NCBI RefSeq assembly: GCF_006345805.1 | Contig: NC_042997.1 | Span: forward strand, 107,074,001-107,138,000 | Length of the DNA stretch: 64,000 nt | Direction of reading: 5' to 3' | From: Octopus sinensis | Lineage: Eukaryota | Shown: in pieces, positions 4,231-43,951 of the stretch | Layout: every line of letters starts with the position of its first letter | Position numbering within the stretch: the first letter of the stretch is position 1 | The notes under the pieces: generated by a model | The model's input: only the letters and a program-made list of their open reading frames with translations | What the model was told of the DNA's origin: nothing | The model's database searches: none | Program-made: the position numbers and the translations under genes

Positions 4231-4299
4231 AGTTACAACAAGATCATTTTCCTTTACTATTGATACAACCAGTGCCTTCTGACACAAATGAGATGGTTT

Positions 4300-4672: not shown

Positions 4673-4674
4673 AG

Positions 4675-5395
4675 TGAATTATAGAGGAAGGCAGACCGCC
4701 AATATGTTTTGCATGTGGAGTAAGGGGTCACATGAAAGCCAAGTGTCCCCAGATACACGAACAGGAGGAGGCAGAAAAGGAGAGATTGTAATGGCAGAGG
4801 AGGAAAAGGAGTTGACAGTGGTAGAAAGGAAGAGAAAGAACATTGAATCTCCAGCTAAAAATAAAAGGCTGAGGAAAATAAGAATGAGAAAAGAAAAAAG
4901 GAGGAATCAAAGAGAGAACGAACACAAAGACCAGAGCTTTCAACGAGTAAGGAGGAGGAAAGAGGGCTGAAGAGACTAGAAAGTGAGAAAGAGGAACAAA
5001 TAGAGAAAGAAATAGTAACAACAGAGGCAGAGAGTGAAGTGATAGAGCTGAGAAAGCCACTGAAGGGGAGATAGGAAAGAGTTCTGGTTGCATATGGAAA
5101 TAGAGAAAAGAAATCCCACGATGAAAGGTGTAATAAGGATTAAGATGGCAGAAGAGGAGGGGAAATGGAATGAGAAAGCAGTGTTGTTTGAAGATGAGAG
5201 AGAGCAAGAAGATTGAGAGAAATATTCAGAGACAGGATAGAAATAACAGCATTACGATTTAGATATGACGAACTACCATCAGTGATAGAGTTCGTGGAAT
5301 TAATAGAATTTATGGTGTGAACAGGATACAAACTGGTAAAAACAATTATTTAAAAACAGTAAAATAGAACTTCCTACTTTGCGGGGGTAGGAAAG
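4675..5395 (+). mobile_element. L1/Tx1-like ORF1 fragment with CCHC zinc knuckle, inserted in the piggyBac remnant
   Basis: About 4686-4752 reads EGRPPICFACGVRGHMKAKCPQ (CX2CX4HX4C), followed by purine-rich E/K/R-coding sequence. Confidence 0.6.
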
Positions 5396-5429
5396 CCATT
5401 TCATTCTCATTATTTTCATAATTCATTCG

Positions 5430-5848
5430 TTATTTGTACAGCAAATGGATACACATCAAATGTGCAAGGTTAGGTTACTGGTAACCTAACCAAAGAACCA
5501 GAGCATGATCATTCAGAGTCTAATGTCCTGCAACTGGCAAAACCTCTTCTTAAAAAAGGGATGACCATTTATGCTGAAGATTTTTATTCATCTTTACCAC
5601 TACAATTGGGGTTGACAAATCTGACCAAACAACTTGTAACTCCATCCTCAGAAAAAATATACAAGTGGTACAGACAACTTCGTCTTGAACTACTGTTAGC
5701 AACATCAATGGTGAATACCTGGACGATATATAACCAATTTTTCCAGCAGACAGAGAAAAAGATAAGAAAGCGTTCACATGTCTAATTTGTGGAATCACTC
5801 AAGAGAAATTGAAACCAGTGTTTCTAGAAAGCGCAAGTCTCACGAGCT
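5430..5848 (+). mobile_element. piggyBac transposase remnant, part 2 (internally deleted)
   Basis: VLQLAKPLLKKGMTIYAEDFYSSLPL (cf. Y.DNFYTS) and KWYRQL..ELLLATSMVNTWTIYN. Confidence 0.75.
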
Positions 5849-7344
5849 AAAACTCAGAAAGGGATAAAGGCTCTTTGATGTAGTGGTAGCTAGTTATCTA
5901 GTCCAGCAGACAGCCAATTTTGACTTTAAAAACAAATGAGACATAACTCCATTGGACCTCCTTAAAAATGCGAAGTCCAAAGAAAAATTAAAGACATTAT
6001 TTCCACCACAAATACTATGTAGGTTGTGTGAAGTTAATACATGAAATTCCATTCCAGGGGTCATGTTAAAAAGTAAATCATAGCAAGTTCAGACTCCAAA
6101 CATTAAAGAAAAGGAAGTCCAAACAGTGGCAGAGTAAGTTGAGACTTCAAAGATTGAAGAGAAGAAAGTCCAAATGGTGACAGCAATATGTGTGTGTGTG
6201 TGTATGGAGAAGGTCCTCACGACATCACAGACAGTCGAATGTGCAAAGGTCGGGGACAAGAAAGTACAGACCGTTTGACAGCCATTAGAGGCTACATCCC
6301 AGTAAGTTGATTCCTAAAACCTCGAAGAGAAGGATCTCCTGAAGGTGTCACTTCAGTTAGGAAGTAATTGGTAGCAAGTAGCTATTTTCTTGGGAATTAT
6401 AACTATTGACCTGCAAATTAACAAGCATAACAATCCTTTGAACATTGTCAAAAAGATCTACCAAATGCTGTTCAAATGGTATCGAAGTTGTAATCTAGAA
6501 AAACGGCGACACAAATCATGAAAAAAGGCTTTTAAAGAAACTGAGTATTTAACTGCCCTTGAATGTCTATCATTAGACAAAGAAGGGAGATGTGTGTAAA
6601 TATTGTTGCTCTTTAGTCCCAGGCCTAACTTCACTAAACAGTGACCCATGATTAAATTCCTTCAACCAGAAAGATCCTTTCTTTTCCTAAATGTAAACGA
6701 TCCACAACCACATTGCCCAACATATTCTTTAAGGTGGTAAGGTATGAATTGAAGAGGATTTAGCAATTAAATCTTGCAGATCTCTACCATGTATTGCCTC
6801 CTTTAATAGTTTGGCTACCTTATTTGAGATTAACCTTTGAACTAAACAAGTTTGAAATATTCAAAAAAGAAAAAAATGTTTTAAAACATTACCCCGCTTC
6901 CCCACTATCAGACTGAAAGTCGATAGTATAACAAACGAGAGTATAAAGCAAATGTCCCAGAAAAGCCGTGTTAACAAGAACTAAATGTTCATACAAGGGC
7001 AAGAAAAAAGCTAATCAAATGAAGTAGGAACAAACATGGCAAACACTTACTGTGACACTTGCAATGAGAAGCCATCTCATCGTATAACATGCTTCAAGTT
7101 ACAGCAATCCAAGTAATCAGGGAAAAAAATAGGCTAACGATTTCTGTTGGTAATTTGCTGAAGGAAAAGTTTATTCTATAACATTTTGGGATCTATATTT
7201 GTTGATTTGTCTTTTCTTATTATTGATCAGTTTTGATAATGAATCAGGAATATGTTATAAATTTGCCAAATCTAGTTATTGTCCTTCATTTCTAAAACAT
7301 AAATCATACAGAGTTCATTAAAATATCAGTTTGTAAAAATTTAT

Positions 7345-7768
7345 ACTGTGTACCAATAGTGGTACATGATGCATAATGGGGCAGTTACCAATGTACCATA
7401 TATGGCGCACGATGTGGTTAAATTGTTAAGAGAACACATGATCAAGCGATGCTTCAATTGGACCTATGCACAGTAACCAAGTGGCCAGATGAGTGTCCGT
7501 ATGGCTCACGATATCCACAACCGGGACAGCATCAAGGTCACTGCATCACAGCCTTGCCACTGAACTGCATGATGTGGATATTCAGAAAAAAAAAAAAAGA
7601 CACCATTGCTTGAAGCCGTTTCCCACGGTCACCTAGGAATGAAACAAGCTAATAGCCCTGGGTGCAGACATAAATGCTGTTGATGGTGATGGTAAAAGCT
7701 GTTTTCACCTTGCTGTGAAAAGAAAAGTTTTTAATTCCGAGGGTGCATCCATGGATTTACTAAACGGA
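7345..7768 (+). pseudogene. Ankyrin-repeat segment ending at a GTAAGT splice donor
   Basis: KTPLLEAVSHGHLGM, one frameshift, then KLIALGADINAVDGDGKSCFHLAVKRKVFNSEGASMDLLNG followed by gtaagt at 7769. Confidence 0.7.
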
Positions 7769-7829
7769 GTAAGTTTTTAAATTGTTTGCGTATATATGTG
7801 TGTGTGTGAGTGTGTGCGTGTGGCTGTGT

Positions 7830-8540
7830 GATTTTGCCCTCCCCCACCAAAGGAAAAGGAAGTTGTCACGGAGCCCCATAAGAAAGGAGAACCAGACAGA
7901 AAGGGCAGCAACTGAAGAGGAGGAGATCCAGCAAGAGTGGGAAGAAGGGAAAAAAAAAAGGGAAAAGAAAGAAAAAAGAAAACAGTACGAAAACCCAACC
8001 CACCCACGCCCTCTGAGTCCCATCCTTCTCCTGCAAACAGCGATTCCACCCACTCCCCGCCTACAAGAAAAACTAAAACAAGTGCAGACACACAGAACGA
8101 ACAAAGCCCCAAGTCCTATTTTTATGTGTTGTGAAGGAAAAGGACACGCAGAACTCGAAAAGGTTGGTACATAAAGACTTATGGCGCGAACATGAAGATG
8201 GTAGTTACGCGGTTTTGGAATATGAACTTATGGAGATATTGGTGAGGAAGTGTGAAGAAGAAGGTATAAAGTGGATGACAGCGCCAATGCAGGATGAAAT
8301 AATAGAGATGTATGAAAGGGAAACAAAGGGTGTGATAAGAAAGGACGGAATTGTAATTGGAAATGGGTGATAAAGGACAGGTAAGTGATGCTGGCAGATG
8401 GGGCCGTTAGCATCGCTTTTCATATTATCATTTTTTCATTTAATTATTCATTGGTCATAATTTTAATTATAATGTTCTTTGTCCCCAATGTTTTGTAATG
8501 TCCCCTCTTCGTCGCCCCTTGTGGGTGATAAAGAAATAGT
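7830..8540 (+). mobile_element. Probable L1/Tx1-type retroposon remnant interrupting the array
   Basis: Purine-rich charged-residue ORF pieces, then a tail (tgtcccctcttc..cttgtgggtgataaagaaat) like the tails at ~29930-29950 and ~33760-33775. Confidence 0.4.
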
Positions 8541-9089
8541 GTGTGTGTGAATTTGTGTATTTGTGAGTCTTTGTGTGAGTGTGAGAGAGAGACAGACAAA
8601 CTTTGCTTGTCATGTATCAATTATCCCCTATCAACTCCATCCTCCATTACCATTCCGTGATCCAGTCTCCCTTTATGACCCGAGTGATATTATGTAACAA
8701 ACAATATTCCATCTCCTTTCACTCTCAAAGATGTCGTCTCACCACGGTCGAGAGGGGACCCATCTCGGTTGTTGGCCATATAAACACAGCCATCACAATG
8801 TGACGGAGAAGTGGCCTATTTAATACATGAGATATTATTCTCAATTAACAATGATGCAGGATAGAAGAGATGTCAGCTTTATAGTGCTGGTGCCATGGTA
8901 AATACATCCAGTCCATTCTATGAAGAATTCTGAGTGAAACTGCTCTCTATCCTACTTCTTGTACATGACATGAATCCACTGACTTCTTGTGGATATGTCA
9001 TAAGAATGTTGTGGTTAAGGTGTTAAGAGAACACATGATAAAGTGATGCTTCAATTGGACCTATGCACAGTAACCAAGTGGCCAGATGA

Positions 9090-10150
9090 GTGTCCGTATG
9101 GCTCACGATATCCACAACTGGACTGAATCCCGGGACAGCATCAAGGTCACTGCATCACAGCCTTGCCACTGAACTGCATAATGTCGAGGTGTGTAACCAG
9201 TGTTTTTTTGCTGTGTCTCAGGGACACTTTGGAATGATGCAGAGGTTGATAGCTAGGGATGCAGACATAAATTCTGTGCCTCAGGGTCATCTCGAAATAA
9301 CACACAGATTAATAGCTAGGGATGCAGACACAAATTCTGTGTACAAAGAAGGCAACAATTGTTTGTACCTGGCTGCAAAGAAGGGGTTCCATTCTCAGGT
9401 GGAATACATAACCATGTTAGATCAATACTGCAAAGAGCTAAAACTCAGAAAAGGACAAAGGCTCTCTGATGTAGTGGTAGCTAGTTATCTAGTCCAGCAG
9501 ACAGCCAATTTTGACTTTAAAAACAAAGGAGACATAACTCCATTGGACCTCCTTAAAAATGCGAAGTCCAAAGAAAAATCAAGACATTATTTCCACCACA
9601 AATACTATGTAGGTTGTGTGAAGTTAATACATGAAATTCCATCCCAGGGGTCATGTTCAAAAAGTAAATCATAGCAAGTTCAGACTCCAAACATTGAAGA
9701 AAAGGAAGTCCAAACAGTGGCAGAGTAAGTTGAGACTACAAAGATTGAAGAGAAGAAAGTCCAAATGGTGACAGCAATATGTGTGTGTGTGTGTGTGTAT
9801 GGAGAAGGTCCTCACGACATCACAGACAGTTGAATGTGCAAAGGTCGGGGACAAGAAAGTACAGACCGATTGACAGCCATTACAGGCTACATCCCAGTAA
9901 GTTGATACCTAAAACCTGGAAGTGAAGCATTTCCTGAAGGAGTCACGTCAGTTAGGAAGTAATTGGTAGCAAGTGGGAATTTTCTTGGGAATTAAAACTA
10001 TTGACCTGCAAATTATCAAGCATAACAATCCTTTGAGCATTGTCAAAATAGATCTACCAAATGCTGTACAAATGGTTCAGAAGTTGTAATCTAGAAAAAC
10101 GGCCACACAAATCACGAAAAGAGGCTTTTAAACAAACAAAGAAGGGAGAT
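9090..10150 (+). pseudogene. Best-preserved array unit (194-aa ankyrin ORF, then frameshifted RING and Death segments)
   Basis: ORF 9090-9674 has 3-4 degenerate ankyrin repeats, a frameshift near 9578 and an in-frame TAG at 9967. Confidence 0.75.
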
Positions 10151-10289
10151 GTGTGTAAATGTTGTTGCTCTTTAGTCACAAACCTTACTTCACTAAACCG
10201 TGACCAATGATTAAATTCCTTCACCCAGAATCATCCTGTCTTTTCCTAAATGTAAACAATCACAGGTTCAATAGTCAAACATTCTAGAG

Positions 10290-12461
10290 CAGGGGACTCC
10301 AAAGTACGGCCCGCGGGCCGGATTCGGCCCGCCAAGGTTTTTAATCCGGCCCGCCGAGCCATCCTCCAAAATTATAAAACAAATGTCGAAAAACAAGCCT
10401 TGCTGAAATCATACAAAAACAAATATACTTTACACCCCTTTTAATACGTTTGACAAATATAGTACAGCAAATAGACGCAAGACGACGCTAATTGATTTGC
10501 CATCAATTAATGTCTTTAAATTGCGCCGGCGAATTAAAAATTTATACACTAAACTTTAGTGTAAATATAGGTTCTTTTCCACTCCCCCCGTTCTAACTGA
10601 CCCATCAGAACCACCATAAAATGAATTAACTTCGCTATGGAGCTACCTATCATTCATCTTAGATAATAGGCGATTGTCAGTGAGATGGATGGTGCTGCTT
10701 ACAATGAAGCAGAGATTCAATTTCTAGCTTTATTGATGTCTCAGAAAAGTCAACCTATTCCGTCAACTGTCGAGAGAGCAGATACGACAAGTATGACGTT
10801 AATAAAAGTCCCGTGCCTAGTATAATAAAAGAAGACAAATATCGATTTATCGATGTTACCTACATCTCACGAGCGATGAATAGAGAGGGTTGAGCCTGAC
10901 GTTGTGTGGTGGTTTCTAATCCTGGTGCAGTCGCCCAGCACAGACTTGGCGTTTTCGTTGTGCACAAGTGTGAGTCATTTGTCGTCGTCGCTGCCGAAGT
11001 GAATGCACGTATCGAGTGACCTGTGAATATTGTTTTTACTTGTTTCGTCCTTTTACATATATCGTCGAGCAAAATCTGTCGACCCATGGTAAAAATGTTA
11101 GCTCAAGGAAGAAAACGAAAAATCGACTCTGAGTGTAAAGTTTTTAAGGAACAATGGAACATAGACTATTTTGTCATAGAGTCAAACAACAAGGCACTAT
11201 GCGTTATATGCACCGACACAATTGCAGTACTTAAAGAGTACAACATTCGGAGACATTATGAAAAAAAGCATTCATCACAGTACTACCAATTCATTGGACA
11301 GCTACGTAAAGAGAAATTTGACAAATTAAAGAAGAATTTATCATCAATGCAGTTTGTTTTCAAGAAGAAGGCTGTAGAAAAAGAGAGAGCAACAAGAGCA
11401 AGCTTCCATGTTGCTAACCTTTTGGCGAAGAAAGGTAAGCCATTTACAGATGGTGAACTTATTAAAAAGTGCTTGAATGAGGTAGCTAAGGAAATGTGTC
11501 CAGAAAACGTAGATTTATTTTCCGCAATTAGTCTTTCTGCGAACACTGTTGCTCGTAGGGTTGAACATATTGAAAGAAATATTAAATCACAGCTAAAAGA
11601 CAAAGCCAGCAAGTTTGTATGCTTTTCTGTTGCACTTGATGAGTCAATTGATGTATCAGACACATCCCAATTGTTATTGTTCATCAGAGGAATAAATGCC
11701 AATTTTGAGATTACTGAGGAACTTGTATCTGTGCACAGCATGCATGGAACAACAACAGGCATAGATATTTTTAGAGAAGTGGAAAAGTCAGTGGCTGAGT
11801 ATAATTTGGAATGGAAAAACTAAAATGCATAACAACAGATGGTGGCAGAAATATGTGTGGAACCAAAAAGGGCTCAGTTGGGCAAATTAACAAAGTAATT
11901 GAGAATTCCGGTGGATTGAAACCTTTGGTATTGCATTGTATTCTTCATCAGCAAGTACTGTGTGGAAAGCATCTTGATTTATCATCTGTATTAGATCCTG
12001 TGATTTCCACTGTTAACTACATAAGATCTCATGGACTCAAACATCGCCAATTTCGTGATTTCTTGGAGGAAATGAATGCTGAGTTTCCAGACCTACCTTA
12101 CTATACTTCAGTAAGATGGCTTAGCTATGGAAAAATTCTGGCTAGATTTTTTGAGCTTCGAACTGAAATTGAAATATTTTTAAATGAGAAAAACCATTTA
12201 CAGGTGTTGCTCAAAGACAGTGAATGGCTCTGGAAATTAGCATTTTCAGCCGATTTAACTATGCATCTCAATGATTTCAACCTACGGATACAAGGTGAAA
12301 CTTCACTCATCTGTGATTTGTACTCAAAGGTGAAAGCTTTTCGTAAGAAATTAATACTATTTGAAAGTCAGTTAACAAGAAGCTGCTTTACTCATTTTTC
12401 ACGATGTGACAAATATAGACAGGAAGCTGCCACTCCATTTCCAAACTTGTTTGCTCAAGAT
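10290..12461 (+). mobile_element. hAT (Buster/SPIN/Charlie-like) DNA transposon, 3'-truncated
   Basis: Starts CAGGGGACTCC..ggcccgcgggcc directly after the target TTCTAGAG (10282-10289). No right TIR; array sequence resumes at 12462. Confidence 0.92.
11086..12461 (+). pseudogene. GTF2IRD2/SPIN-like hAT transposase with one frameshift, C-terminus missing
   Basis: BED finger CVIC..NIRRHYEKKH, ALDES, TTDG, CILH and VRWLS. Frame change in the A-run at ~11815; no catalytic E or dimerisation domain. Confidence 0.92.
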
Positions 12462-13762
12462 GTCCAAAGAAAATCTTAAAGACATTATTCCCACCACAAA
12501 TACTATGTAGGTTGGGCTGAAGTTAATACATGAAATTCCATCCCTGGGGTCAGGTTCAAAAAGTAAATCATAGCAAGTTCAGACTCCAAACATTGAAGAA
12601 AAGGAAGTCCAAACAATGGCAGAGTAAGTTGAGACTTCAAAGATTGAAGAGAAGAAAGTCCAAATGGGGACAGCAATGTGTGTGTGTGTGGAAAAGGTCC
12701 TGACGACATCACAGACACTTGAATGTGCAAAGGTCGAGGACAAGAAAGTACAGACCAGTATAGGCTACATCCCAGTAAGTTGATTCTTAAGACCTGGAAC
12801 AAAAGCATCTACTGACACAGACACTTGAATGTGGAAAGGTCGAGGACAAGAAAGTACAAACAGATTAACAACCAATAGAGGCTACATCCCAGTAAGTTGA
12901 TTCTTAAGACCTGGAACAAAAGCATCTCCTGAAGGAGTCACGTCAGTTAGGAAGTAATTGGTAGCAAGTTGGAATTTTCTTGGGAATTAAAACAATTCAC
13001 CGGCAAATTATCAAGCATAACTATCCTTTGAACATAGTCAAATAGATCTACCAAATGCTGTTCAAATTGTATAAAAGTCGTAATCTAGAAAAACGGCCAC
13101 ACAAATCACGGAAAGAGGCTTTTAAAGAAACCGAATGTTTCAATGCACTCAAATATCTATCACTAGACAAAGAAGGGAGATGTGTGTAAATGTTGTTGCT
13201 CTTTAGTCACAAACCTTACTTCACTAAACCGTGACCAATGATTATATTCCATCACCCAGAATCATCCTGTCTTTTCCTAAATGTAAACAATCACAGGTTC
13301 AATAGTCAAACATTCTAGAGGAATACTGCACTGAGCTCAAACTCAGAATGGGATAAAGGCTCTCTGATGTGGTGGTTGCTAGTTATCTAGTCCACCAGAG
13401 AGCCTATTTTGACTTCAAAAACAAAGAAGACATAACTTCAGTGGACCTCCTTATAAATGTAAAGTCCAAAGAAAAATTAAAGACATTATTCCCACCACAA
13501 ATACTATGTAGGTTGTGTGAAGTGAATACATGAAATTCCATCCCTGGAGTCATGTTCAAAAAGAAAATCATAGCAAGATCAGACTCCAAACATTGAAGAA
13601 AAGGAAGTCCAAACTGTGGCAGAGTAAGTTGAGACTTCAAAGATTGAAGAGAAGAAAGTCCAAATGGTGACAGCAATGTGTGTGTTTGTGTGTATGTGGA
13701 GAATGTCCTGACGACATCACAGACAGCTGAATGTGCAAAGGTCGAGGACAGGAAAGCACAGA

Positions 13763-13862
13763 NNNNNNNNNNNNNNNNNNNNNNNNNNNNNNNNNNNNNN
13801 NNNNNNNNNNNNNNNNNNNNNNNNNNNNNNNNNNNNNNNNNNNNNNNNNNNNNNNNNNNNNN
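13763..13862. other. Assembly gap (100 N)
   Basis: Run of N. Confidence 1.
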
Positions 13863-16800
13863 AAGTAGGAATTTTCTTGGGAATTAAAACCATTCACAGG
13901 CAAATTATCAAGTATAACAATCCTTTGAACATTATGAACATAGTTCAGGAATGATTTGCGATGATTCAGAAGTTGTAATCTAGAAAAACGGCCACACAAA
14001 TCACGAAAAGAGGCTTTTAGAGAAAGTGAGTGCTTAACTGCCCTTGAATATCTATCATTAGTCAAAGAAGGGAGATGTGTGTAATATATTTTGTCTCTTT
14101 AGTTCCAGGCCTAACTTCACTAAACAGTGACCCATGATTGGATTCCTTCAACCAGAAACATCCTGTCTTTTCCAAAATGTAAACAATCCACAACAACATT
14201 GCCGAATATATTCTTTAAGGTGGTAAGTTATGAATTGAAGAGGATTTAGCAATTAAATTTTGCAGATCTCTACCATATATTGACTCCTTTAATAGTTTGG
14301 CTCCCTTATTTGAGATTAACCATTGAACTAAACAACTTTTAAATGTTCAAAAAAGAAAAACAATACTGATTCACATCGCTACCCGCCAGCAGATTGAAAG
14401 TCGATAGTATAACAAACGAGTATAAAACAAATGTCCAGGAAAACACGTGTTTACAAGAACTAAATGTTCATACAAAGGCAAGAAAAAAGCTAATCAAATG
14501 AAGTAGGAGCAAACATGGCAAACACTTACTGTAACATTTGCAATTAGAAGCCATCTCATCGTATAACATGCTTCAAGTTACAGCAATCCAACTAATCAGG
14601 GAATAAAATATGCTAACGATGTCTGTTGCTAATTTGCTGAAGGAAAAGCTTATTCTATAACTTTTTGGAATCTATAATTGTTAATGTGTTTTATTCCTGA
14701 TTCATTATCAAAACTTATCAATAATATGTTATAAATTTGCAAAGTCTAGTTATTGTCCTTCATTTCTAAAACATAAATCATACAGAGTTCATTAAAATAT
14801 CAGTTTGTAAAAATTTATACTGCGTACCAATAGTGGTACATAATGCAGGTTGGGACAGTTAACCATGTACCAAATATGGTGCACAATGTGTTTAAAGTGT
14901 TAGGAGAACATATGATCAAGCGATGGTTGAATTGGACCTATGCACAGTAACCAAGTGGCCACAACAGTGTTCTTATGGTTCACGATCTCCACAACTGGGC
15001 TGAATCCTAGTACAGCATCATGGCCACTGCATCACAGCCTTGCCACTGAAATGTATAATGTGGAGGTCTGTCAGCAGTGTTTTTTCGCTGTGTCTCAGGG
15101 ACACTTCGGAATGATGCAGAGGTTGATAGCTAGGGATGCAGGCAAAAATTCTGTAAAAAATGAAGGCAACAATAGCAAATAAAATATGCTAAGATTGTCT
15201 GTTTCTAATTTGTTAAAGGATAAGTTAATCCAATAACTTTTCTTTATCTATATTTGTTGATATTTTACTTTATTATTATTGATAAGTTTTGATCAGGCGT
15301 CGGCAACCTGTGGCACATAAGTTCAACCAGCATTGCTGCTGAATTGCATAACGTAGAGGTGTGTTATCATTACTTTTTGCTGTGTCTCACGGTCACCTCA
15401 GAATAATGCAAAAGTTGATAGCTAGAGATGCACAAATAAATTCTGTGCCTCAGGGTCATCTCAGAATAACCCACAGATTAATAGCTAGGGATACAGGCAC
15501 AAATTCTGTGAACAAAGGCAACAATTATTTGCACCTTGCTGTAAAGAAGGGGTTCCATTCTCAGGTTCAATAGTCAAACATTCTAGAGGAATACTGCACC
15601 GAGCTCAAACTCAGAAACGGATAAAGGCTCTCTGATGTGGTGGTTGCTAGTTATCTGGTCCACCAGTGAGCTAATTTTGACTTTAAAAACAAAGGAGACA
15701 TAACTGCAGTGGACCTCCTTATAAATGCAAAGTCCAAAGAAAAATTAAATACATTATTCCCACTACAAATACTATGTAGGTTGTCTGAAGTTAATACATG
15801 AAATTCCATCCCTGGGGTCATGTTCAAACAGTAAATCATAGCAAGTTCAGACTCCAAACATTGAAGAAAAGGAAGTCCAAACAGTGGCAGACTAAGTTGA
15901 GACTTCAATGATTGAAGAGAAGAAAGTCCAAATGGGGACCGCAACATGTGTGTGTGGAGAAGGTCCTGACGACATCACAGGCAGTTTAATGCGCAAAGAA
16001 GAAGAAAAGAAAGTAATGACTGATTCACAGCCATTAGAGGCTACATGCCAGAATGCTGATTCTAAAAACCTGGAAGAGAAGGATCTCCTAAAGGTGTCAC
16101 GTCAGTTAGGAAGCAATTGGTAGCAAGTTGGAATATTCTTGGGAATTAAAACTATTGACGTGCAAATTATCAAGCATAACTATCCTTTGAACATTGTCAA
16201 ATAGATCAACCAAATGCTGTACGATGTAATCTAGAAAAACAGCCATACAAACAACAAATAGAGGCTTTTAAAGAAAGTGAGTGCTTAACTACACTTAAAT
16301 ATCTATCACTAGACAAAGAAGGGAAATGCTTCAATTGGACCTATGCACAGTAACCAAGTGGCCACAACAGTGTCCTTATGGTTCACAATATTCACAACTG
16401 GACTGAATCCCGGCACAGCATCAAAGCCACTGCATCACAGCATTGCCACTGAACTGCATAATGTTGAGGTGTGTAACAGAGTGCTTTTTGATGTGTCTCA
16501 GGGATACTTCGGAATGATGCAGAGGTTGATAGCTAGGGATGCAGGCAAAAATTCTGTAATCAAAGAAGGCAACAATAGCAAATAAAATATGATAAGATTG
16601 TCTGTTTCTAATTTGTTAAAGGATAAGTATATCCTATAACTTTTTGTATTTATATTTGTTGATTTGCTTTTTGTTGATATTTTACTTTATTATAATTGAT
16701 AAGTTTTGATCAGGCATCGGCAACCTGCTGCACATAAGCTCCACAGAGCGTTGCTACTAAACTACATAACGTAGAGGTGTGTTATCATTAGTTTTTGCTA

Positions 16801-19341
16801 TGTCTGAAGGTCACCTCAGAACAATCGAAAAGTTGAAAGCTAGAGATGCACACATAAATTCTGTGCCTCAGGTTCATCTCAGAATTACCCACAGATTAAT
16901 AGCTAGGGATGCAGACACAAATTCTGTGAACAAAGGCAACAACTGTTTGCACCTGGCTGTGAAGACGGGGGTTCCATTCTCAGGTTCAATAGTGAAACAT
17001 TCTAGAGGAATACTTCACCGAGCTCAAACTCAGAAACGGATTAAGGCTCTCTGATGTAGTGATTGCTAGTTATCTAGTCCACCAGAGAGCCTATTTTAAC
17101 CTCAAAAACAAAGAAGACATAACTTCAGTGGACCTCCTTATAAATGCAAAGTCCAAAGAAAATTTAAAGATGTTATTCCCACCACAAATACTATGTAGGT
17201 TGTCTGAAGTAAATACATGAAATTCCATCCCTGGAGTCATGTTCAAAGAGTAAATCATAGCAAGATCAGACTCCAAACATTGAAGAAAAAGAAGTCCAAA
17301 CTGTGGCAGAGTAAGTTGAGACTTCAAAGATTGAAGAGAAAAAGTCCAAATAGTGATAGCAACGTGTGTGTGTGTGAGTGTGTGTGGAGAATGTCCTGAC
17401 AACACCACAGATAGTTGAATGTGCAAAGGTCGAGGACCAGAAAGTACAGACCGATTAACAGCCAGTAGAGGCTACATCCCAGTAAGTTGATTCTTAAAAT
17501 CTGGAAGAGTTACGTCAGTTAGGAAGTAATTGGTAGCAACTTGGAATTTTCTTGAGAATTAAAACTATTCACCGGCAATTTATCAAGCATAACTATCCTT
17601 TGAACATAGTCAAATAGATCTACCAAATGCTGTTCAAATAGTACAAAAGTTGTAATCTAGAAAAACAGCCGCACAAATCACGAAAAGAGGCTTTTAAAGA
17701 AACCGAATGTTTCAATGCACTTAAATATCTATCACTAGACAAAGAAGGGAGATGTGTGTAAATGTTGTTGCTCTTTAGTCACAGGCCTTACTTCACTATA
17801 CAGTGACCCATGATTATATTCCTTCAACCAGAAACATCCTGTCTTTTCCTAAATGTAAACAATCCACAACAACATTGCCGAATATATTCTTTAAGGTGAT
17901 AAGTTATGAATTGAAGCGGATTTAGCAATTAAATCTTGCAGATCTCTACCGTATATAGACTCCTTTAATAGTTTGGCTCCCTTATTTGAGATTAACCTTT
18001 GAACTAAACGACTTTTAAATGTCCAAAAAAGAAAAACAATACTGATTCACATCACTACCCGCCAGCAGACTGAAAGTCGATAGTATAACAAACGAGTATA
18101 AAACAAATGTCCCAGAAAAACGTGTTTACAAGAACTAAATGTTCATACAAGGGCAAGAAAAAAGCTAATCAAATGAGGTAGGAACAAACGTGGCAAACAC
18201 ATACTGTAACATTTGCAATGAGAAGCCATCTCATCGTATAACATGCTTCAAGTTACAGCAAGCCAACTAATCAGGGAATAAAATATGCTAACAATGTCTG
18301 TTGCTAATTTGCTGGAAAAGTTTATTCTATAACTTTTTGTGATATATATATGTTGATGTGTCTTTTCTTTTGAAAATGAATCAGGAATATGTTATAAATT
18401 TGCAAAATCTTGTTACTGTCCTTTATTTCTAAAATATAAATCATACAGAGTTCACTAAAATATCAGTTTGTAAATATTTATACTGTGTACCAAAAGTGGT
18501 ACATGATGTCGGTGGGACAGTTACCCATGTACCATATATGGCGCACGATGTGGTTAAAGTGTTAAGAGAACTTATAATCAGGCGATGCGCCAATTGGACC
18601 TATGCACAGTAACCGAGTGGCCACAACAGTGTTCTTGTGGTTCACAATATCCACAACTGGACTGAAATCCGGAACAGCATCAAGGCCACTGCATCACAGC
18701 CTTGCCACTGAACTGCATAATATGGAAGTGTGTAACAAATGTTTTTTGCCGTGTCTCAGGAACACTTAGGAATAATGCACCAGTTAATAGCTAGGGATGC
18801 AGGCACAAATTCTGTGAACAAAGGCTACAATTGTTTGCATCTTGCTGTGAAGAAGGGGTTCCATTCTCAGGTTCAATAGTCAAACATTCTAGAGCAATAC
18901 TCTCACAAGTTCAGACCCTGAAAGGGATGAAGGTTCTCTGACGTGGTGGTTGCTAGTTATCTAGTCCACTAGAAAGCCAATTATGACTTTAAAAACAAAG
19001 GAGACATTACTCCATTAGACCTCCTTAAAAATGCATAGTCCAAAGGAAAATTAAAGACATTATTCCCACCACAAATACTATGTAGGTTGACTGAAGTTAA
19101 TACATGAAATTCCATCCCTGGGGTCAGGTTCAAAAAGTAAATCATAGCAAGTTCAGACTCCAAACAGTGGCAGAGTAAGTTGAGACTTCAAAGATTGAAG
19201 AGAAGAAAGTCCAAATGTGTGTGTGTGTGGAAAAGGTCCTGACGACATCACAGACAGTTGAATGTGCAAAGGTCGAGGACAAGAAAGTACAGACCAGTAG
19301 AGGCTACATCCCAGTAAGTTGATTCTTAAAACCTGGAACAA

Positions 19342-22300
19342 AAGCATTTCCTGAAGGAGTCACGTCAGTTAGGAAGTAATTGGTAGCAAGTGGGAATTTT
19401 CTTGGGAATTAAAACTATTGACCTGCAAATTATCAAGCATAACAATCCTTTGAGCATTGTCAAAATAGATCTACCAAATGCTGTACAAATGGTTCAGAAG
19501 TTGTAATCTAGAAAAACGGCCACACAAATCACGAAAAGAGGCTTTTAAACAAACAAAGAAGGGAGATGTGTGTAAATGTTGTTGCTCTTTAGTCACAAAC
19601 CTTACTTCACTAAACCGTGACCAATGATTAAATTCCTTCACCCAGAATCATCCTGTCTTTTCCTAAATGTAAACAATCACAGGTTCAATAGTCAAACATT
19701 CTAGAGCAGGGGACTCCAAAGTACGGCCCGCCAAGGTTTTTAATCCGGCCCGCCGAGCCATCCTCCAAAATTATAAAACAAATGTCGAAAAACAAGCCTT
19801 GCCGAAATCATACAAAAACAAATATACTTTACACCCCTTTTAATACGTTTGACAAATATAGTACAGCAAATAGACGCAAGACGACGCTAATTGATTTGCC
19901 ATCAATTAATGTCTTTAAATTGCGCCGGCGAATTAAAAATTTATACACTAAACTTTAGTGTAAATATAGGTTCTTTTCCACTCCCCCCGTTCTAACTGAC
20001 CCATCAGAACCACCATAAAATGAATTAACTTCGCTATGGAGCTACCTATCATTCATCTTAGATAATAGGCGATTGTCAGTGAGATGGATGGTGCTGCTTA
20101 CAATGAAGCAGAGATTCAATTTCTAGCTTTATTGATGTCTCAGAAAAGTCAACCTATTCCGTCAACTGTCGAGAGAGCAGATACGACAAGTATGACGTTA
20201 ATAAAAGTCCCGTGCCTAGTATAATAAAAGAAGACAAATATCGATTTATCGATGTTACCTACATCTCACGAGCGATGAATAGAGAGGGTTGAGCCTGACG
20301 TTGTGTGGTGGTTTCTAATCCTGGTGCAGTCGCCCAGCACAGACTTGGCGTTTTCGTTGTGCACAAGTGTGAGTCATTTGTCGTCGTCGCTGCCGAAGTG
20401 AATGCACGTATCGAGTGACCTGTGAATATTGTTTTTACTTGTTTCGTCCTTTTACATATATCGTCGAGCAAAATCTGTCGACCCATGGTAAAAATGTTAG
20501 CTCAAGGAAGAAAACGAAAAATCGACTCTGAGTGTAAAGTTTTTAAGGAACAATGGAACATAGACTATTTTGTCATAGAGTCAAACAACAAGGCACTATG
20601 CGTTATATGCACCGACACAATTGCAGTACTTAAAGAGTACAACATTCGGAGACATTATGAAAAAAAGCATTCATCACAGTACTACCAATTCATTGGACAG
20701 CTACGTAAAGAGAAATTTGACAAATTAAAGAAGAATTTATCATCAATGCAGTTTGTTTTCAAGAAGAAGGCTGTAGAAAAAGAGAGAGCAACAAGAGCAA
20801 GCTTCCATGTTGCTAACCTTTTGGCGAAGAAAGGTAAGCCATTTACAGATGGTGAACTTATTAAAAAGTGCTTGAATGAGGTAGCTAAGGAAATGTGTCC
20901 AGAAAACGTAGATTTATTTTCCGCAATTAGTCTTTCTGCGAACACTGTTGCTCGTAGGGTTGAACATATTGAAAGAAATATTAAATCACAGCTAAAAGAC
21001 AAAGCCAGCAAGTTTGTATGCTTTTCTGTTGCACTTGATGAGTCAATTGATGTATCAGACACATCCCAATTGTTATTGTTCATCAGAGGAATAAATGCCA
21101 ATTTTGAGATTACTGAGGAACTTGTATCTGTGCACAGCATGCATGGAACAACAACAGGCATAGATATTTTTAGAGAAGTGGAAAAGTCAGTGGCTGAGTA
21201 TAATTTGGAATGGAAAAACTAAAATGCATAACAACAGATGGTGGCAGAAATATGTGTGGAACCAAAAAGGGCTCAGTTGGGCAAATTAACAAAGTAATTG
21301 AGAATTCCGGTGGATTGAAACCTTTGGTATTGCATTGTATTCTTCATCAGCAAGTACTGTGTGGAAAGCATCTTGATTTATCATCTGTATTAGATCCTGT
21401 GATTTCCACTGTTAACTACATAAGATCTCATGGACTCAAACATCGCCAATTTCGTGATTTCTTGGAGGAAATGAATGCTGAGTTTCCAGACCTACCTTAC
21501 TATACTTCAGTAAGATGGCTTAGCTATGGAAAAATTCTGGCTAGATTTTTTGAGCTTCGAACTGAAATTGAAATATTTTTAAATGAGAAAAACCATTTAC
21601 AGGTGTTGCTCAAAGACAGTGAATGGCTCTGGAAATTAGCATTTTCAGCCGATTTAACTATGCATCTCAATGATTTCAACCTACGGATACAAGGTGAAAC
21701 TTCACTCATCTGTGATTTGTACTCAAAGGTGAAAGCTTTTCGTAAGAAATTAATACTATTTGAAAGTCAGTTAACAAGAAGCTGCTTTACTCATTTTTCA
21801 CGATGTGACAAATATAGACAGGAAGCTGCCACTCCATTTCCAAACTTGTTTGCTCAAGATGTCCAAAGAAAATCTTAAAGACATTATTCCCACCACAAAT
21901 ACTATGTAGGTTGGGCTGAAGTTAATACATGAAATTCCATCCCTGGGGTCAGGTTCAAAAAGTAAATCATAGCAAGTTCAGACTCCAAACATTGAAGAAA
22001 AGGAAGTCCAAACAATGGCAGAGTAAGTTGAGACTTCAAAGATTGAAGAGAAGAAAGTCCAAATGGGGACAGCAATGTGTGTGTGTGTGGAAAAGGTCCT
22101 GACGACATCACAGACACTTGAATGTGCAAAGGTCGAGGACAAGAAAGTACAGACCAGTATAGGCTACATCCCAGTAAGTTGATTCTTAAGACCTGGAACA
22201 AAAGCATCTACTGACACAGACACTTGAATGTGGAAAGGTCGAGGACAAGAAAGTACAAACAGATTAACAACCAATAGAGGCTACATCCCAGTAAGTTGAT

Positions 22301-23161
22301 TCTTAAGACCTGGAACAAAAGCATCTCCTGAAGGAGTCACGTCAGTTAGGAAGTAATTGGTAGCAAGTTGGAATTTTCTTGGGAATTAAAACAATTCACC
22401 GGCAAATTATCAAGCATAACTATCCTTTGAACATAGTCAAATAGATCTACCAAATGCTGTTCAAATTGTATAAAAGTCGTAATCTAGAAAAACGGCCACA
22501 CAAATCACGGAAAGAGGCTTTTAAAGAAACCGAATGTTTCAATGCACTCAAATATCTATCACTAGACAAAGAAGGGAGATGTGTGTAAATGTTGTTGCTC
22601 TTTAGTCACAAACCTTACTTCACTAAACCGTGACCAATGATTATATTCCATCACCCAGAATCATCCTGTCTTTTCCTAAATGTAAACAATCACAGGTTCA
22701 ATAGTCAAACATTCTAGAGGAATACTGCACTGAGCTCAAACTCAGAATGGGATAAAGGCTCTCTGATGTGGTGGTTGCTAGTTATCTAGTCCACCAGAGA
22801 GCCTATTTTGACTTCAAAAACAAAGAAGACATAACTTCAGTGGACCTCCTTATAAATGTAAAGTCCAAAGAAAAATTAAAGACATTATTCCCACCACAAA
22901 TACTATGTAGGTTGTGTGAAGTGAATACATGAAATTCCATCCCTGGAGTCATGTTCAAAAAGAAAATCATAGCAAGATCAGACTCCAAACATTGAAGAAA
23001 AGGAAGTCCAAACTGTGGCAGAGTAAGTTGAGACTTCAAAGATTGAAGAGAAGAAAGTCCAAATGGTGACAGCAATGTGTGTGTTTGTGTGTATGTGGAG
23101 AATGTCCTGACGACATCACAGACAGCTGAATGTGCAAAGGTCGAGGACAGGAAAGCACAGA
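19342..23161 (+). repeat. ~3.8-kb near-identical duplication, copy 2
   Basis: Matches 9925-13762. Confidence 0.93.
19707..21860 (+). mobile_element. Second copy of the same truncated hAT insertion (transposase 20485-21860)
   Basis: Same target site, frameshift and 3' breakpoint as copy 1, plus an 18-bp deletion between ggcccgc repeats near the 5' end. Confidence 0.92.
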
Positions 23162-26100
23162 CTGATTGACAGCCAGTAGAGGCTACATCCCAGTAAGTTG
23201 ATTCTTAAAACCTGGAAGAAAAGGATATCTGGAAGGAGTCTCATCAGTTAGGAAGTAATTGGTAGCAACTTGGAATTTTCTTGAGAATTAAAACTTGCCC
23301 TGCAAATTATCAAGCATAACAATCCTTTGAACATTGTCAAATAGATCTACCAAATGCTGTTCAAATGGCATCAAAGTTGTAATCTAGAAAAACGGCCACA
23401 CAAATCACGAAAAGAGGCTTTTAAAGAAACCGAATGTTTCAATGCACTCAAATATCTATCACTAGACAAAGAAGGGAGATGTGTGTAAATGTTGTTGCTC
23501 TTTAGTCACAGGCCTTACTTCACTAAACCGTGACCAACGATTAAATTCCTTCACCCAGAATCATCCTGTCTTTTCCTAAATGTAAACAACCACAGGTTCA
23601 ATAGTCAAACATTCAAGAGGAATACTGCACTGAGCTCAAACTCAGAATGGGATAAAGGCTCTCTGATGTGGTGGTTGCTAGTTATCTAGTCCACCAGAGA
23701 GCCTATTTTGACTTCAAAAACAAAGAAGACATAACTTCAGTGGACCTCCTTATAAATGCAAAGTCCAAAGAAAAATTAAAGACATTATTCCCACCACAAA
23801 TACTATGTAGGTTGTGTGAAGTGAATACATGAAACTCCATCCCTGGAGTCATGTTCAAAAAGAAAATCATAGCAAGATCAGACTCCAAACATTGAAGAAA
23901 AGGAAGTCCAAACTGTGGCAGAGTAAGTTGAGACTTCAAAGATTGAAGAGAAGAAAGTCCAAATGGTGACAGCAACGTGTGTGTGTGTGTGTGTGTGTGG
24001 AGAATGTCCTGACGACATCACAGACAGCTGAATGTGCAAAGGTCGAGGACAGGAAAGCACAGACTGATTGACAGCCAGTAGAGGCTACATCCCAGTAAGT
24101 TGATTCTTAAGACCTGGAAGAAAAGGATATCCGGAAGGAGTCACGTCAGTTAGGAAGTAATTGGTAGCAAGTAGGAATTTTCTTGAGAATTAAAACTATT
24201 GCCCTGCAAATTATCAAGCATAACAATCCTTTGAACATTGTCAAATAGATCTACTAAATGCTGTTCAAATGGCATCAAAGTTGTAATCTAGAAAAACGGC
24301 CGCACAAATCACGAAAAGAGGCTTTTAAAGAAACTGAGTGTTTAACTGCCCTTGAATGTCTATCATGACTCAAAGAATGGAGATGTGTGTAAATATTGTT
24401 GCTCTTTAGTCACAGGCCTTACTTCACTAAACACTAACCCATGATTAAATTCCTTTAACCATAAACATACCGTCTTTTCCAAAATGTAAACAATCCACAA
24501 CCACATTGCCCAACACATTCTTTAAGGTGGTAAGGTATGAATTGAAGAGGATTTAGCAATTAAATCTTGCAGATCTCTACCATATATTGACTCCTTTAAA
24601 AGTTTGGCTCCCTTACTTGAGATTAACCTTTGAACAAAAGAACTTTGAAAGGTTCAAAAAAGAATAAAAATAATGTTTTACAACATTACACGCCAGCAGA
24701 CTGAATGTCGATAGTATAACAAACGAGTATAAAACAAATGTCCCAGAAAAACATGTTTACAAGAACTAAATGTTCATACAGGGGCAAGGAAAAAGCTAAT
24801 CAAATTAGGTAGGAACAAACATGGGAAACACTTACTGTGACATTTGCAATGAGAAGCCATCTCATCGTATAAAATGCTTCAAGTGACAGCAATCCAACTA
24901 ATCAGGGAATAAAATATGCTAACGATGTCTGTTGTTAATTTGCTGAAGGAAAAGTTTATTCTATAACTCTTTGGGATCTATATCTGTTGATGTGTCCTTT
25001 CACATTATTGATAAGTTTTGAAAATGAATCAGGAATATGTTATAAATTTGCAAAATCTAGTTATTGTCCCTCATTTCTAAAACATAAATCATACAGAGTT
25101 CATTAAAATATCAGTTTGTAAAAATTTATACTGTGTACCAATAGTGGTACATGATGCAGGTTGGGACAGTTACACATGTACCATATATGGCCCACGATGT
25201 GGTTAAAGTGTTAAGAGAACATATGATCAAGCGATGCTTCAATTGGACCTATGTACAGTAACTGAGTGGCCACAACAGTGTCCTTATGGTTCACAATATC
25301 CACAACTGGACTGACTCCCGGAACAGCATCAAGGTTACTGTATCACAGCCTTGTCACTGAACTGCATAATGTGGAAGTGTGTAACCAGTGTTTTTTACTG
25401 TGTCTCAGGGACACTTTCGAATAGTGCACCAGTTAATAGCTAGGGATGCAGGCATAAATTCTGTGTCTCAGGGTCAACTCAGAATAATAGCTAGGGATGA
25501 AGACACAAATTCTTTGAACAAAGGCTACAATTGTTTGCACCTTGCTGTGCAGAAGGGGTTCCATTCTTAGGTTTAATAGTCAAATATTCTAGGGGAATAC
25601 TGTAACGAGTTCAAATTCAGAAAGGGATAAAGGCTCTCTGATGTGGTGGTTGCTAGTTATCTAGTCCACTGGAAAGCCATTTATAACTTTAAAAACAAAG
25701 GAGACATTACTCTATTGGACCTTCTTAAAAATGCAAAGTCCAAAGAAAAATTAAAGACATTATTCCCACCACAAATACTATGTAGGTTGTCTGAAGTTAA
25801 TACATGAAATTCCATCCCTGGAGTCATGTTCAAAAAGTAAATCATAGCAAGTTCAGACTCCAAACATTGAAGAAAAGTAAGTCCAAATAGTGGCAGACTA
25901 AGTTGAGACTTCAAAGATTGAAGAGAAGAAAGTCCAAATGGTGACAGCAACTTGTGTGTGTGTATGTGGAGAAGGTCCTGACAACATCACAGACAGTTGA
26001 ATGTGCAAAGGTTGAGGACAAGAAAGTACAAACAGATTAACAACCAGTAGAGACTACATCCCAGTAAGTTGATTCTTAAAACCTGGAAGAAAAGTATCTC

Positions 26101-28351
26101 CTGAAGGAGTCACGTCAGTTAGGAAGTAATTGGTAGCAAGTAGGAATTTTCTTGGAAATTATAACTATTGACCTGCAAATTATCAAGCATAACTATCCTT
26201 TGAACATTGTCAAATAGATCTACCAAATGCTGTTCAAATGGATTAGAATTTGTAATCTAGAAAAACAGCCACACAAATCACGAAAAGCAGCTTTTAAAGA
26301 AACCGAGTGTTTCAATGCACTTAAATATCTATCACTAGACAAAGAAGGGAGATCTGTGTAAATGTTGTTGCTCTTTAGTCCTAGGCCTAACTTCACTACA
26401 CCGTGACCTATGATTAAATTCCTTCAACCAGAATCATCCTGTCTTTTCCTAAATGCAAACATTCCACAACCACATTGCCGAATATATTCTTTAAGGTGGT
26501 AAGGTATGAATTGAAGAGGATTTAGCAATTAAATCTTGCAGATCTCTACCATATATTGACTCCTTTAAGAGTTTGGCTCCCTTATTTGAGATTAACCTTT
26601 GAATAAAAGAACTTTGAAAGGTTCAAAAAAGAAAAAAAATAATGTTTTACAACATTACCCGCCAGCAGATTGAAAGTCAATAGTATAATTAACGAGTATA
26701 AAACAAATGTCCCAGAAAAACGTGTTTACAAGAACTAAATGTTCATACAAGGGCAAGAAAAAAGCTAATCAAATTAGGTAGGAACAAACATGGCAAACAC
26801 TTACTATGACACCTGCAATGAGAAGCCATCTCATCATATAACATGCTTCGTGTTACAGCAATCCAACTAATCAGGGAATAAAATATGCTAACGATGTCTG
26901 CTGCTAATTTGCTGAAGGAAAAGTTTATTCTATAACTTTTGGGGATCTATATTTGTTGATGTGTCTTTTCTTATTATTGATAAGTTTTGAAAATGAATCA
27001 GGAATATGTTATAAATTTGCAAAATCTAGTTATTGTCCTTTATTTCTAAAACATAAATCATATAGAGTTCATTAAAATATCAGTTTGTAAAAATATATAC
27101 TGTGTACCAATAGTGGTACATGATGCAGGTTGGGACAGTTACCCATGTACTATATATGGCGCACGATGTGGTTTAAGTGTTAAGAGAACATATGATCAAG
27201 TGATGCTTCAATTGGACCTATGTACAGTAACCGAGTGGCCACAACAGTGTCCTTATGGTTCACAATATCCACAACTGGATGACTCCCGGAACAGCATCAA
27301 GGTCACTGTATCACAGCCTTGTCACTGAACTGCATAATGTGGAAGTGTGTAACCAGTGTTTTTTGCTGTGTATCAGGGACACTTCAGACACAAATCCTGT
27401 GAACAAAGGCAACAATTGTTTGCACCTTGCTGTGAAGAAGGGGTTCCATTCTTAGGTTCAATAGTCAAACATTCTAGAGGAATACTGTCACGAGTTCAAA
27501 CTCAGAAAGGGATAAAGGCTATCTGATATGGTGGTTATTAGTTATCTAGTCCACTAGAAAGCCAATTGTGACTTTAAAAACGAAGGAGACATAACTCCAT
27601 TGGACCTCCTCAAAAATGCAAAGTCCAAAGAAAAACTTAAAGACATTATTCCCACCACAAATATTATGTAGGTTAACTGAAGTTAATACATGAAATTCCA
27701 TTCCTGGGGTCATGTTCAAAAAGTAAATCATAGCAAGTTCAGACTCCAAACATTGAAGAACAGTAAGTCCAGACTGTGGCAGAGTAAGTTGAGACTTCAG
27801 AGATTGAAGAGAAGAAAGTCCAAATGGTGACAGAAACTTGTGTGTGTGTGAGTTTGTGGAGAAGGTCCTGACGACATCACAGACAGTTGAATGTGCAAAG
27901 GTCGAGGATAAGAAAGTACAGACCGATTGACAGCCAGTAGAGGCTACATCCCAGTAAGTTGATTCTTAAAACCTGGAAGAAAAGGATCTCCGGAAGGAGT
28001 CACGTCAGTTAGGAAGTAATTGGTAGCAAGTAGGAATTTTCTTGGGAATTAAAACCATTCACAGGCAAATTATCAAGTATAACAATCCTTTGAACATTAT
28101 GAACATAGTTCAGGAATGACGTGCAATGGTTCAGAAGTTGTAATCTAGATAAACGGCCACACAAATCACGAAAAGAGGCTTTTAAAGAAAGTGAGTGTTT
28201 AACTGCCCTTGAGTATCTATCATTAGTCAAAAAAGGGAGATGTGTGTAAATGCTGTTGCTCTTTAATCCCAGGCCTAACTTCACTAAACAGTGACCCATG
28301 ATTAAATTCCTTCAACCAAAATCACCCTGTCTTTTCCTAAATGTAAACAAC

Positions 28352-29950: not shown

Positions 29951-30039
29951 AGTTAGGAGTCATATCATTCTATTAGGTTTGCTGAATTTGGTTTGTTCAG
30001 CAAGACTAGCCTCCACACTATGGCATCTATCCAGCTTTG

Positions 30040-42718: not shown

Positions 42719-42764
42719 TAAGTAGCAATCATCTTCTACATTACCACCTTGCAGGTACCTTACA

Positions 42765-43750: not shown

Positions 43751-43774
43751 ATATGGCAATGTTTCGTCAAGTAC

Positions 43775-43949: not shown

Positions 43950-43951
43950 TA

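What the first reader, a model, noticed from the sequence alone, without database searches (positions are those of the whole stretch)
5845..28350. A ~22.5-kb satellite-like array built from a dead ankyrin-RING-Death-domain gene
Seen: at least 12 head-to-tail copies, as long ~2-2.6-kb units and short ~0.9-kb units. Every readable Death segment has the same in-frame stop, aat tgg TAG caa (near 6372, 9967, 12962, 16121, 17534, 19384, 22360, 23263, 24165, 26134, 28024). Most copies also share RING-region lesions and a variable (GT)n. Known: ZZ, ankyrin and RING domains are the mind-bomb E3 ligase architecture, and canonical MIB1/2 lack a C-terminal Death domain. Inference: the parent is a lineage-specific Ank-RING-Death ligase family, possibly in immune or apoptotic signalling, and amplification happened after inactivation. 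The array may be neutral, or it may act as a small-RNA source or gene-conversion donor for live paralogs.
Basis: partly seen in the sequence, partly recalled or inferred. Interest (0 to 1): 0.75.

Follow-up and report, generated by a model that had tools for sequence, protein, structure and literature searches.

The report
Octopus retrocopy pseudogene turned tandem array
An intron-less, broken copy of an octopus ankyrin-RING-death-domain gene, likely pasted in from its messenger RNA by a retrotransposon, is repeated head to tail in two arrays on one chromosome; it is most likely neutral debris, though probably transcribed.

Summary
The array is real: 13 whole or partial units, with the same Death-domain TAG at 11 sites. 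The unit core is a processed pseudogene of the octopus Ank-RING-Death ('MIB2-like') family. It crosses at least 6 exon junctions without introns, lacks the 5' third, carries a 5' inversion and ends in an A-run. It sits in a piggyBac relic; the 'ZZ' is that transposase's cysteine-rich tail. RING frameshift, RING deletion and several stops are shared, so it died before amplifying, and later changes look neutral (omega ~0.8, p=0.2). A ~56-kb duplicate 65 Mb away holds a second, 9-unit array, homogenised around a unit that captured an exon and intron from a live paralog. Contigs from three probable RNA runs cover the array; strand is unknown. The retro part is only ~70% like any live gene found, which argues against small-RNA or donor roles; the captured exon is the exception. 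About 3.7 kb beside the N gap may be double-counted. The scan had noted the live family on other DNA, not this array.

The parts
4281..5782 (+). piggyBac transposase relic, 5' and middle part (host of the retrocopy)
   Evidence: Pfam DDE_Tnp_1_7 E 3.7e-13 and 8.7e-5; profile positions 94-478 of 567 in order
5842..6863 (+). Unit 1: retrocopy 3' part (last ankyrin, broken RING, linker, Death with TAG at 6372, 3' UTR up to the A-run)
6863..7008 (+). Piece of a dispersed repeat that has its own A-run at the join; present in long units
   Evidence: 74-92% to four other loci
   Evidence: profile of 22 piggyBac C-termini, iE 5.4e-5; the five copies are the top hits; no ZZ in Pfam
7205..7435 (.). Dispersed repeat piece in the spacer of long units
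   Evidence: 78-84% to C17, C4, C7 loci
7575..9010 (+). Captured genomic piece of a live paralog: ankyrin exon, splice donor and intron, split by a 0.7-kb insertion, flanked by a ~170-base duplication (7413-7578 / 9010-9187)
   Evidence: 90% (exon) and 94% (intron) to G000:C1:41553413-41554186, the gene of P0010; duplication
9103..9208 (-). 5'-inverted retrocopy segment (mRNA 507-631, across two exon junctions); also at 7521, 14980, 16383, 18642, 25291, 27260
9201..10261 (+). Unit 2, forward part from ankyrin residue ~214 to UTR; chimeric near 9900
10290..12460 (+). hAT (SPIN/Buster-like) transposon, 3'-truncated, one frameshift
   Evidence: Pfam Spin-doc zinc finger E 1.7e-9; ORFs; family name beyond the Pfam hit is recalled
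12462..13762 (+). Units 3 and 4 (partial); same sequence as 21861-23161; possibly double-counted
13763..13862 (.). 100-N assembly gap
13863..19678 (+). Units 5 (partial), 6, 7, 8 with spacers; mostly 9-13% apart
19707..21860 (+). Second hAT copy, 99.95% like the first
21861..26625 (+). Units 9-12 (0.9-kb short units at 22732, 23632; long unit 25291-26625)
26602..26639 (+). AATAAA (26602) and A-run (26625-26639) where homology to live 3' UTRs ends
   Evidence: a perfect AATAAA is in 1 of 5 window long units
27260..28354 (+). Unit 13, cut off by a LINE
28355..29760 (+). LINE reverse-transcriptase relic bounding the array; shared with the second array
   Evidence: Pfam RVT_1 E 3.1e-8; L1/Tx1 clade is my recalled reading

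Best explanation
The array is built from one intron-less, 5'-inverted, broken copy of an octopus ankyrin-RING-Death mRNA, likely inserted by a LINE reverse transcriptase and likely multiplied by unequal crossing-over after it was already dead; it most likely has no selected function. Steps: (1) shown: the unit is colinear with spliced mRNA, 5'-truncated, inverted at its 5' end and ends in an A-run; inferred: LINE target-primed reverse transcription with twin priming. (2) shown: it lies between two consecutive parts of a piggyBac relic. (3) shown: RING frameshift, RING deletion and several stops are shared; inferred: they arose in the single copy. (4) shown: tandem units 4-13% apart, with chimeric units and internal deletions; inferred: unequal exchange. 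(5) shown: one unit type holds an exon plus intron of a live paralog; inferred: templated repair from that gene. (6) shown: a ~56-kb duplicate carries a second array whose 9 units are 0-3.8% apart; inferred: later homogenisation by the capture-type unit. (7) likely: read-through transcription without a product.
For: The live gene of P0002 has 12 coding exons and 11 introns of 0.8-4.5 kb. Units align through junctions 557, 594, 804, 980, 1222 and 1294 with no intron, and more loosely through 1120 and 1171; other paralogs have introns at the same places. The inverted piece is mRNA 507-631 and the forward part resumes within about 15 bases of it. Homology to the live 3' UTR stops at the A-run. 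Shared lesions. Neutrality: 54 of 186 variants synonymous against 24.9% expected from the array's own mutation spectrum, omega ~0.81, p=0.20; 70/64/61 variants by codon position. Host. Capture. Duplicate: window -4425..52222 against C1:41728392-41780747, 2-6% substitutions in unique flanks, no N in the stretches fetched around its ends. Tree: the 9 second-array units group with window units 1 and 2, support 100/100.
Against: No target-site duplication: the longest word shared by the flanks is 6 bases in 25 of 25 pairs. The A-run may partly belong to the repeat it joins. No close parent was found: best 70.5-70.8% over ~1.1 kb, 72.5% for the last exon among 25 live loci, so an intron-less parent is not formally excluded. 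A naive count that ignores mutation bias gave pN/pS 0.65, p=0.009; it fell to non-significance with the spectrum. Probable transcription in three studies is more than pure debris needs. Tracts of 0-0.5% difference between the two loci may be real conversion or assembly mixing.
Confidence: 0.75

Rival explanations
1. The arrays are a regulatory RNA source, like Drosophila Su(Ste): read-through or antisense transcripts yield piRNAs or siRNAs that damp live paralogs, chiefly the P0010-type subfamily through the captured exon.
For: Contigs from probable RNA runs X3, X5, X9 (three studies) cover 28, 28 and 26 of 30 bins of 22690-28700; the LINE-only last bin is 9.6, 11.8 and 0 there, against 1234 in the genome-sized run X18. 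The captured exon shares exact stretches of up to 28 (window) and 56 bases (second array) with live genes. The capture-type unit is the one that spread in the second array. Each long unit holds ~105-125 antisense bases.
Against: The retro part has 1 exact match of 21 bases or more to 25 live loci in unit 12 and none in unit a2. The captured exon is sense, and no long hairpin forms: best perfect arms 9-10 bases. No small-RNA or strand data. Run type is a guess and contig depth is a poor measure of expression.
Confidence: 0.12
2. Much of the copy number is an assembly product: the block beside the N gap is counted twice, and the second array is the other haplotype placed elsewhere.
For: 3.7 kb identical but for 1 mismatch and one gap, ending at the N gap. 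7079-9879 differs by 0-0.5% from the second locus amid 2-6% flanks.
Against: Most window units are 4-13% apart, far above sequencing error. The second locus has no N over C1:41.71-41.80 Mb, its homology ends on both sides inside continuous sequence, and it differs by transposon insertions. Variants of several unit types occur in public runs.
Confidence: 0.08
3. The unit is a DNA-level duplicate of an intron-less member of the family, or of a gene that lost its introns while alive.
For: No close parent found; no target-site duplication.
Against: Every live locus examined at these junctions has introns; the 5' inversion is itself spliced and abuts the forward part, as twin priming predicts; the first three exons are absent.
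Confidence: 0.03
4. The shared TAG is recoded to tryptophan by A-to-I editing, common in cephalopods (recalled), and the units make a Death-domain protein.
For: The stop replaces a TGG of live genes and is kept in 20 of 20 readable copies.
Against: Other shared stops include TAA and lie upstream in the same frame, with a frameshift and no start or promoter. A>G and T>C lead the change counts in the DNA-like run as much as in the RNA-like runs. Changes are neutral.
Confidence: 0.02

Closest known systems
Processed pseudogenes with 5' inversion (twin priming; PMC12016303, passages seen)
   Same: No introns, 5' truncation, 5' inversion joined to a forward part, A-run at the 3' end.
   Different: Invertebrate host; no target-site duplication left; the copy was then tandemly amplified.
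D4Z4 macrosatellite with the DUX4 retrogene (PMC2965761, start of abstract in a search listing)
   Same: Kilobase tandem units, each with a retrotransposed gene copy.
   Different: DUX4 is a coding gene; here every unit is dead and changes neutrally.
Segmentally duplicated retrocopies: equid LCORL (PMC10249811, abstract) and great-ape CICP (PMC13015009, abstract)
   Same: One RNA-derived insertion spread afterwards by DNA duplication; LCORL copies are transcribed.
   Different: Those are segmental duplicates; here the spread is head-to-tail with 0.9-3.6-kb periods plus one 56-kb duplication, and includes a captured genomic exon.
Drosophila Su(Ste) and PCKR repeats (PMC7874207, passages seen)
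   Same: Tandem, frameshifted gene copies with a DNA-transposon piece in the unit, transcribed, no protein.
   Different: Su(Ste) has shown antisense transcription and piRNAs against Stellate; none is shown here, and the retro part is ~70% like its nearest live gene.
Octopus 'MIB2-like' ankyrin-RING-Death genes (P0001-P0019)
   Same: Parent family: ankyrin tail, C3HC4_3 RING, 51-base linker exons, Death domain, 3' UTR.
   Different: Live members have introns and open frames; none carries ZZ or Mib_Herc2 in the 5 scanned.

Membership tests
Processed pseudogene | Introns of the parent gene are absent | tested here: met
   6 clear and 2 looser junctions crossed without intron; the other 3 of 11 lie in the missing 5' part
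Processed pseudogene | Ends in poly(A) where the mRNA ends | tested here: inconclusive
   Homology to the live UTR stops at an A-rich run in all 5 window long units; AATAAA perfect in 1 of 5; the adjoining repeat has its own A-run
Processed pseudogene | 5' truncation or 5' inversion | tested here: met
   mRNA 507-631 inverted, forward part follows, nothing upstream of 507
Processed pseudogene | Target-site duplication (69.6% of 23 human cases in PMC12016303) | tested here: inconclusive
   No shared word above 6 bases, but unit 1 lost its 5' end and the other units' left flank is a duplication junction, so the original site is not preserved
Processed pseudogene | Disabled reading frame, neutral change | tested here: met
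Mind bomb MIB1/MIB2 | N-terminal Mib_Herc2/ZZ module (recalled) | tested here: not met
   CDTC motif is a piggyBac tail; no ZZ hit in units or in 5 of 5 live relatives
Mind bomb MIB1/MIB2 | Ankyrin repeats followed by RING | tested here: met
   Met in live relatives; in the array only as a remnant lacking the second half of the RING
Su(Ste)-type small-RNA repressor array | Antisense transcripts and piRNAs | not testable with these tools
   Only contigs could be laid; no strand, no small RNA
Su(Ste)-type small-RNA repressor array | High identity to a live target | tested here: inconclusive
   Not met for the retro part (~70%); partly met for the captured exon (exact runs to 28-56 bases); only 25 of ~100 live loci were compared
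Retrogene macrosatellite (D4Z4 type) | Kilobase tandem units each with a retrocopy | tested here: met
Retrogene macrosatellite (D4Z4 type) | Intact coding retrogene in the unit | tested here: not met
piggyBac transposase relic (for the 'ZZ') | DDE core and C-terminal cysteine-rich domain in order on one strand | tested here: met
   profile positions 94-478 before unit 1 and 529-562 after it

The most novel reading that the evidence does not exclude
A dead retrocopy array has been re-aimed: by capturing an exon of a live paralog and spreading that unit through a second array, it now makes RNAs that repress one subfamily of a ~100-member octopus ankyrin-RING-Death family, a Su(Ste)-like brake that updates its target by gene conversion.
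Probability: 0.1. Interest if true: 0.75.

Novelty: new variant of a known kind. Interest (0 to 1): 0.38.

Why it matters
As it stands it is a clear worked case of how a macrosatellite is born: retro-insertion, decay, tandem growth, exon capture, duplication and homogenisation can all be read in one locus. It also points to twin-primed retroposition of host mRNA in an octopus. In practice it warns annotators: two arrays add about 20 false members and a false ZZ domain to a large, little-studied family. If the transcripts prove to be a small-RNA source, it would be a self-updating repressor of a probable immune or cell-death gene family.

Tried and rejected
ZZ domain: no Pfam hit at E<=1 in the frames scanned; explained as piggyBac tail. 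A DNA and a protein search for intact copies of the host piggyBac in G000 found only the two array loci; a word search for its relatives found none, so the HMMER search was used. The ESM Atlas gave no answer. Close parent: none above ~75% in own-genome DNA search (40 of 46 candidates scored), 150 of 159 protein candidates or 19 proteins. Purifying selection: apparent in the naive test, gone with the mutation spectrum; the five control frames gave omega 0.89-1.00. Target-site duplication: none found. Hairpin from the inversion: no long arms. RNA editing of the stop: rejected. A 30-base loose end seen in X5 and X9 is not in G000. Literature: listings showed no paper on this locus or family; only titles and abstract starts were seen, and subscription papers are missing. 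No supplements were consulted.

Full report
Observation. Self-comparison shows head-to-tail copies from 5838 to 28354. Mapping modules along the window gives 13 whole or partial units with periods of 0.9, 1.4, 1.9-2.0 and 3.6 kb, two 2.2-kb hAT copies and a 100-N gap. Pfam finds ankyrin repeats clearly and Death weakly. The nearest proteins are octopus 'MIB2-like' proteins of 448-545 residues with ankyrin, zf-C3HC4_3 and Death and no ZZ. All 17 hits of a second search are named Octopus.

The live family. A search of G000 with one Death segment gave 126 matches from 150 of 159 candidates scored. By my count 27 rows belong to the arrays or a fragment of them; 97 of the other 99 have no stop. Some may be haplotype duplicates on unplaced contigs. 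Earlier notes of this scan describe that family on other DNA; none describes this array.

The unit is a processed pseudogene. The gene of P0002 has 12 coding exons and 11 introns of 0.8-4.5 kb, and other paralogs have introns at the same places. Units align to the spliced mRNA at 70.5-70.8% over about 1.1 kb and run through junctions 804, 980, 1222 and 1294 without introns, more loosely through 1120 and 1171. Loose junction patterns occur 8, 12, 12 and 11 times in the window and 8, 9, 9 and 9 times in the second array. Just before the forward part lies mRNA 507-631 in reverse, itself spliced across junctions 557 and 594. That geometry is the one described for twin priming in LINE retrotransposition (PMC12016303, passages). 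Homology to the live 3' UTR ends at an A-rich run, with AATAAA 23 bases before it in one of five long units. Two cautions: the repeat that follows has its own A-run, and no target-site duplication survives. The LINE mechanism is therefore inferred; the intron loss and inversion are shown.

Host and the 'ZZ'. Upstream of unit 1 is a piggyBac transposase relic. A profile of 28 related full-length transposases matches positions 94-478 before unit 1 and, weakly, 529-562 after it. A profile of 22 C-termini hits 7006-7101 at iE 5.4e-5, and the five long-unit copies are its top hits in the whole window. The CDTC motif is thus the transposase tail, and the retrocopy sits inside the relic.

Death before amplification. 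The RING frameshift, the loss of the RING's second half and the following TAG are in 21 of 21 pieces covering them. The Death TAG is in 11 of 11 window and 9 of 9 second-array units. Window units are mostly 4-13% apart. Variants among 15 representative pieces (of 25 aligned; near-identical copies left out) gave a naive pN/pS of 0.65, p=0.009. With the array's own mutation spectrum this became omega ~0.81, p=0.20, close to the control frames, with 70/64/61 variants by codon position. I read this as neutral.

Exon capture. Bases 7575-7830 and 8539-9010 are not retro-derived. They are an exon, its splice donor and intron, 90% and 94% like G000:C1:41553413-41554186 and 85-95% like three other loci. 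That locus is the intact gene of P0010. The piece is flanked by a ~170-base duplication and joins through short shared words. The direction is live gene to array, since only this unit type has it. Templated repair is inferred.

Second array. The own-genome search found 9 more units at C1:41.735-41.763 Mb. They lie in a duplicate of window -4425..52222, with 2-6% substitutions in unique flanks and no N in the fetched stretches. Those units are 0-3.8% apart and group with window units 1 and 2 at 100/100; most carry the captured piece. The P0010 gene lies about 170 kb from this array. The simplest order is: array, capture, duplication, then homogenisation of the second locus. Tracts of 0-0.5% difference between the loci are either conversion or assembly mixing. 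The 3.7-kb block ending at the N gap repeats elsewhere with 1 mismatch and one gap and may be counted twice.

Expression. No listed run is on record as RNA. On 22690-28700, contigs of probable RNA runs X3, X5 and X9 (three studies, two organism codes) cover 28, 28 and 26 of 30 bins, with array depths up to 91, 272 and 429. The LINE-only last bin reads 9.6, 11.8 and 0, while the genome-sized run X18 gives 1234 there and at most 116 on the array. DNA carry-over would favour the LINE, so transcription is likely. Contigs show neither strand nor level, and some variants are of the unit-1 type, so the source array is open. Loose ends in X5 and X9 match the piggyBac-to-unit-1 join.

Function. For a small-RNA role the retro part is too diverged: one exact match of 21 bases or more to 25 live loci in unit 12, none in unit a2. 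The captured exon shares exact runs of up to 28 and 56 bases. No long hairpin forms. I give neutral read-through 0.75 and a regulatory role 0.12.

Comparison. Retrocopy macrosatellites (D4Z4; listing), duplicated retrocopies (PMC10249811 and PMC13015009, abstracts) and dead tandem repeats that make piRNAs (PMC7874207, passages) are all known. This locus is a new variant: a twin-primed, dead retrocopy grown into two arrays with a captured exon. Searches listed no paper on it. Interest 0.38.

Noticed in passing
G000 genome-wide: About 97 stop-free Death last exons of the parent family, many on C27, C29, C8, C26 and unplaced contigs: a very large expansion.
   Followed up: partly
L037:5377-5675 (G000:C3) and L049:4801-4941 (G000:C9): Isolated pieces of the array on other chromosomes: ~300 bases identical to unit 7, and ~140 bases spanning the inversion junction at 92%. 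The array donates short templated inserts.
   Followed up: partly
window 50063-51736 (-): C2H2 zinc-finger ORF of 557 residues with about 19 fingers, inside the 56-kb duplicate; the other copy looks shorter. Its 3' end points toward the array, so read-through would be antisense.
   Followed up: no
window 3079-3479, 5879-6279, 7079-9879: Tracts of 0-0.5% difference from the duplicate locus amid 2-6% background: ectopic conversion over 65 Mb or assembly mixing.
   Followed up: partly
window 24826 (runs X5, X9): Loose ends of 197-255 bases joined to the piggyBac tail; the 30 bases shown are absent from G000. Also a join from 24926 back into a Death segment in both runs: unit types not in this assembly.
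   Followed up: partly
window 10290-12460 and 19707-21860: hAT element with two long ORFs split by one frameshift and no 3' end; looks young.
   Followed up: partly
window 46324-48063 (-), 41226-41825 (-), 60032-60793 (+): A LINE with a 443-residue reverse-transcriptase-like ORF, a mariner-like transposase relic and a gag-like ORF of an LTR element (names recalled from the sequences, not scanned).
   Followed up: no
window 1-1537: 97% like a stretch of L080 (G000:C8471), inside a paralog of the parent family; probably a young repeat.
   Followed up: no
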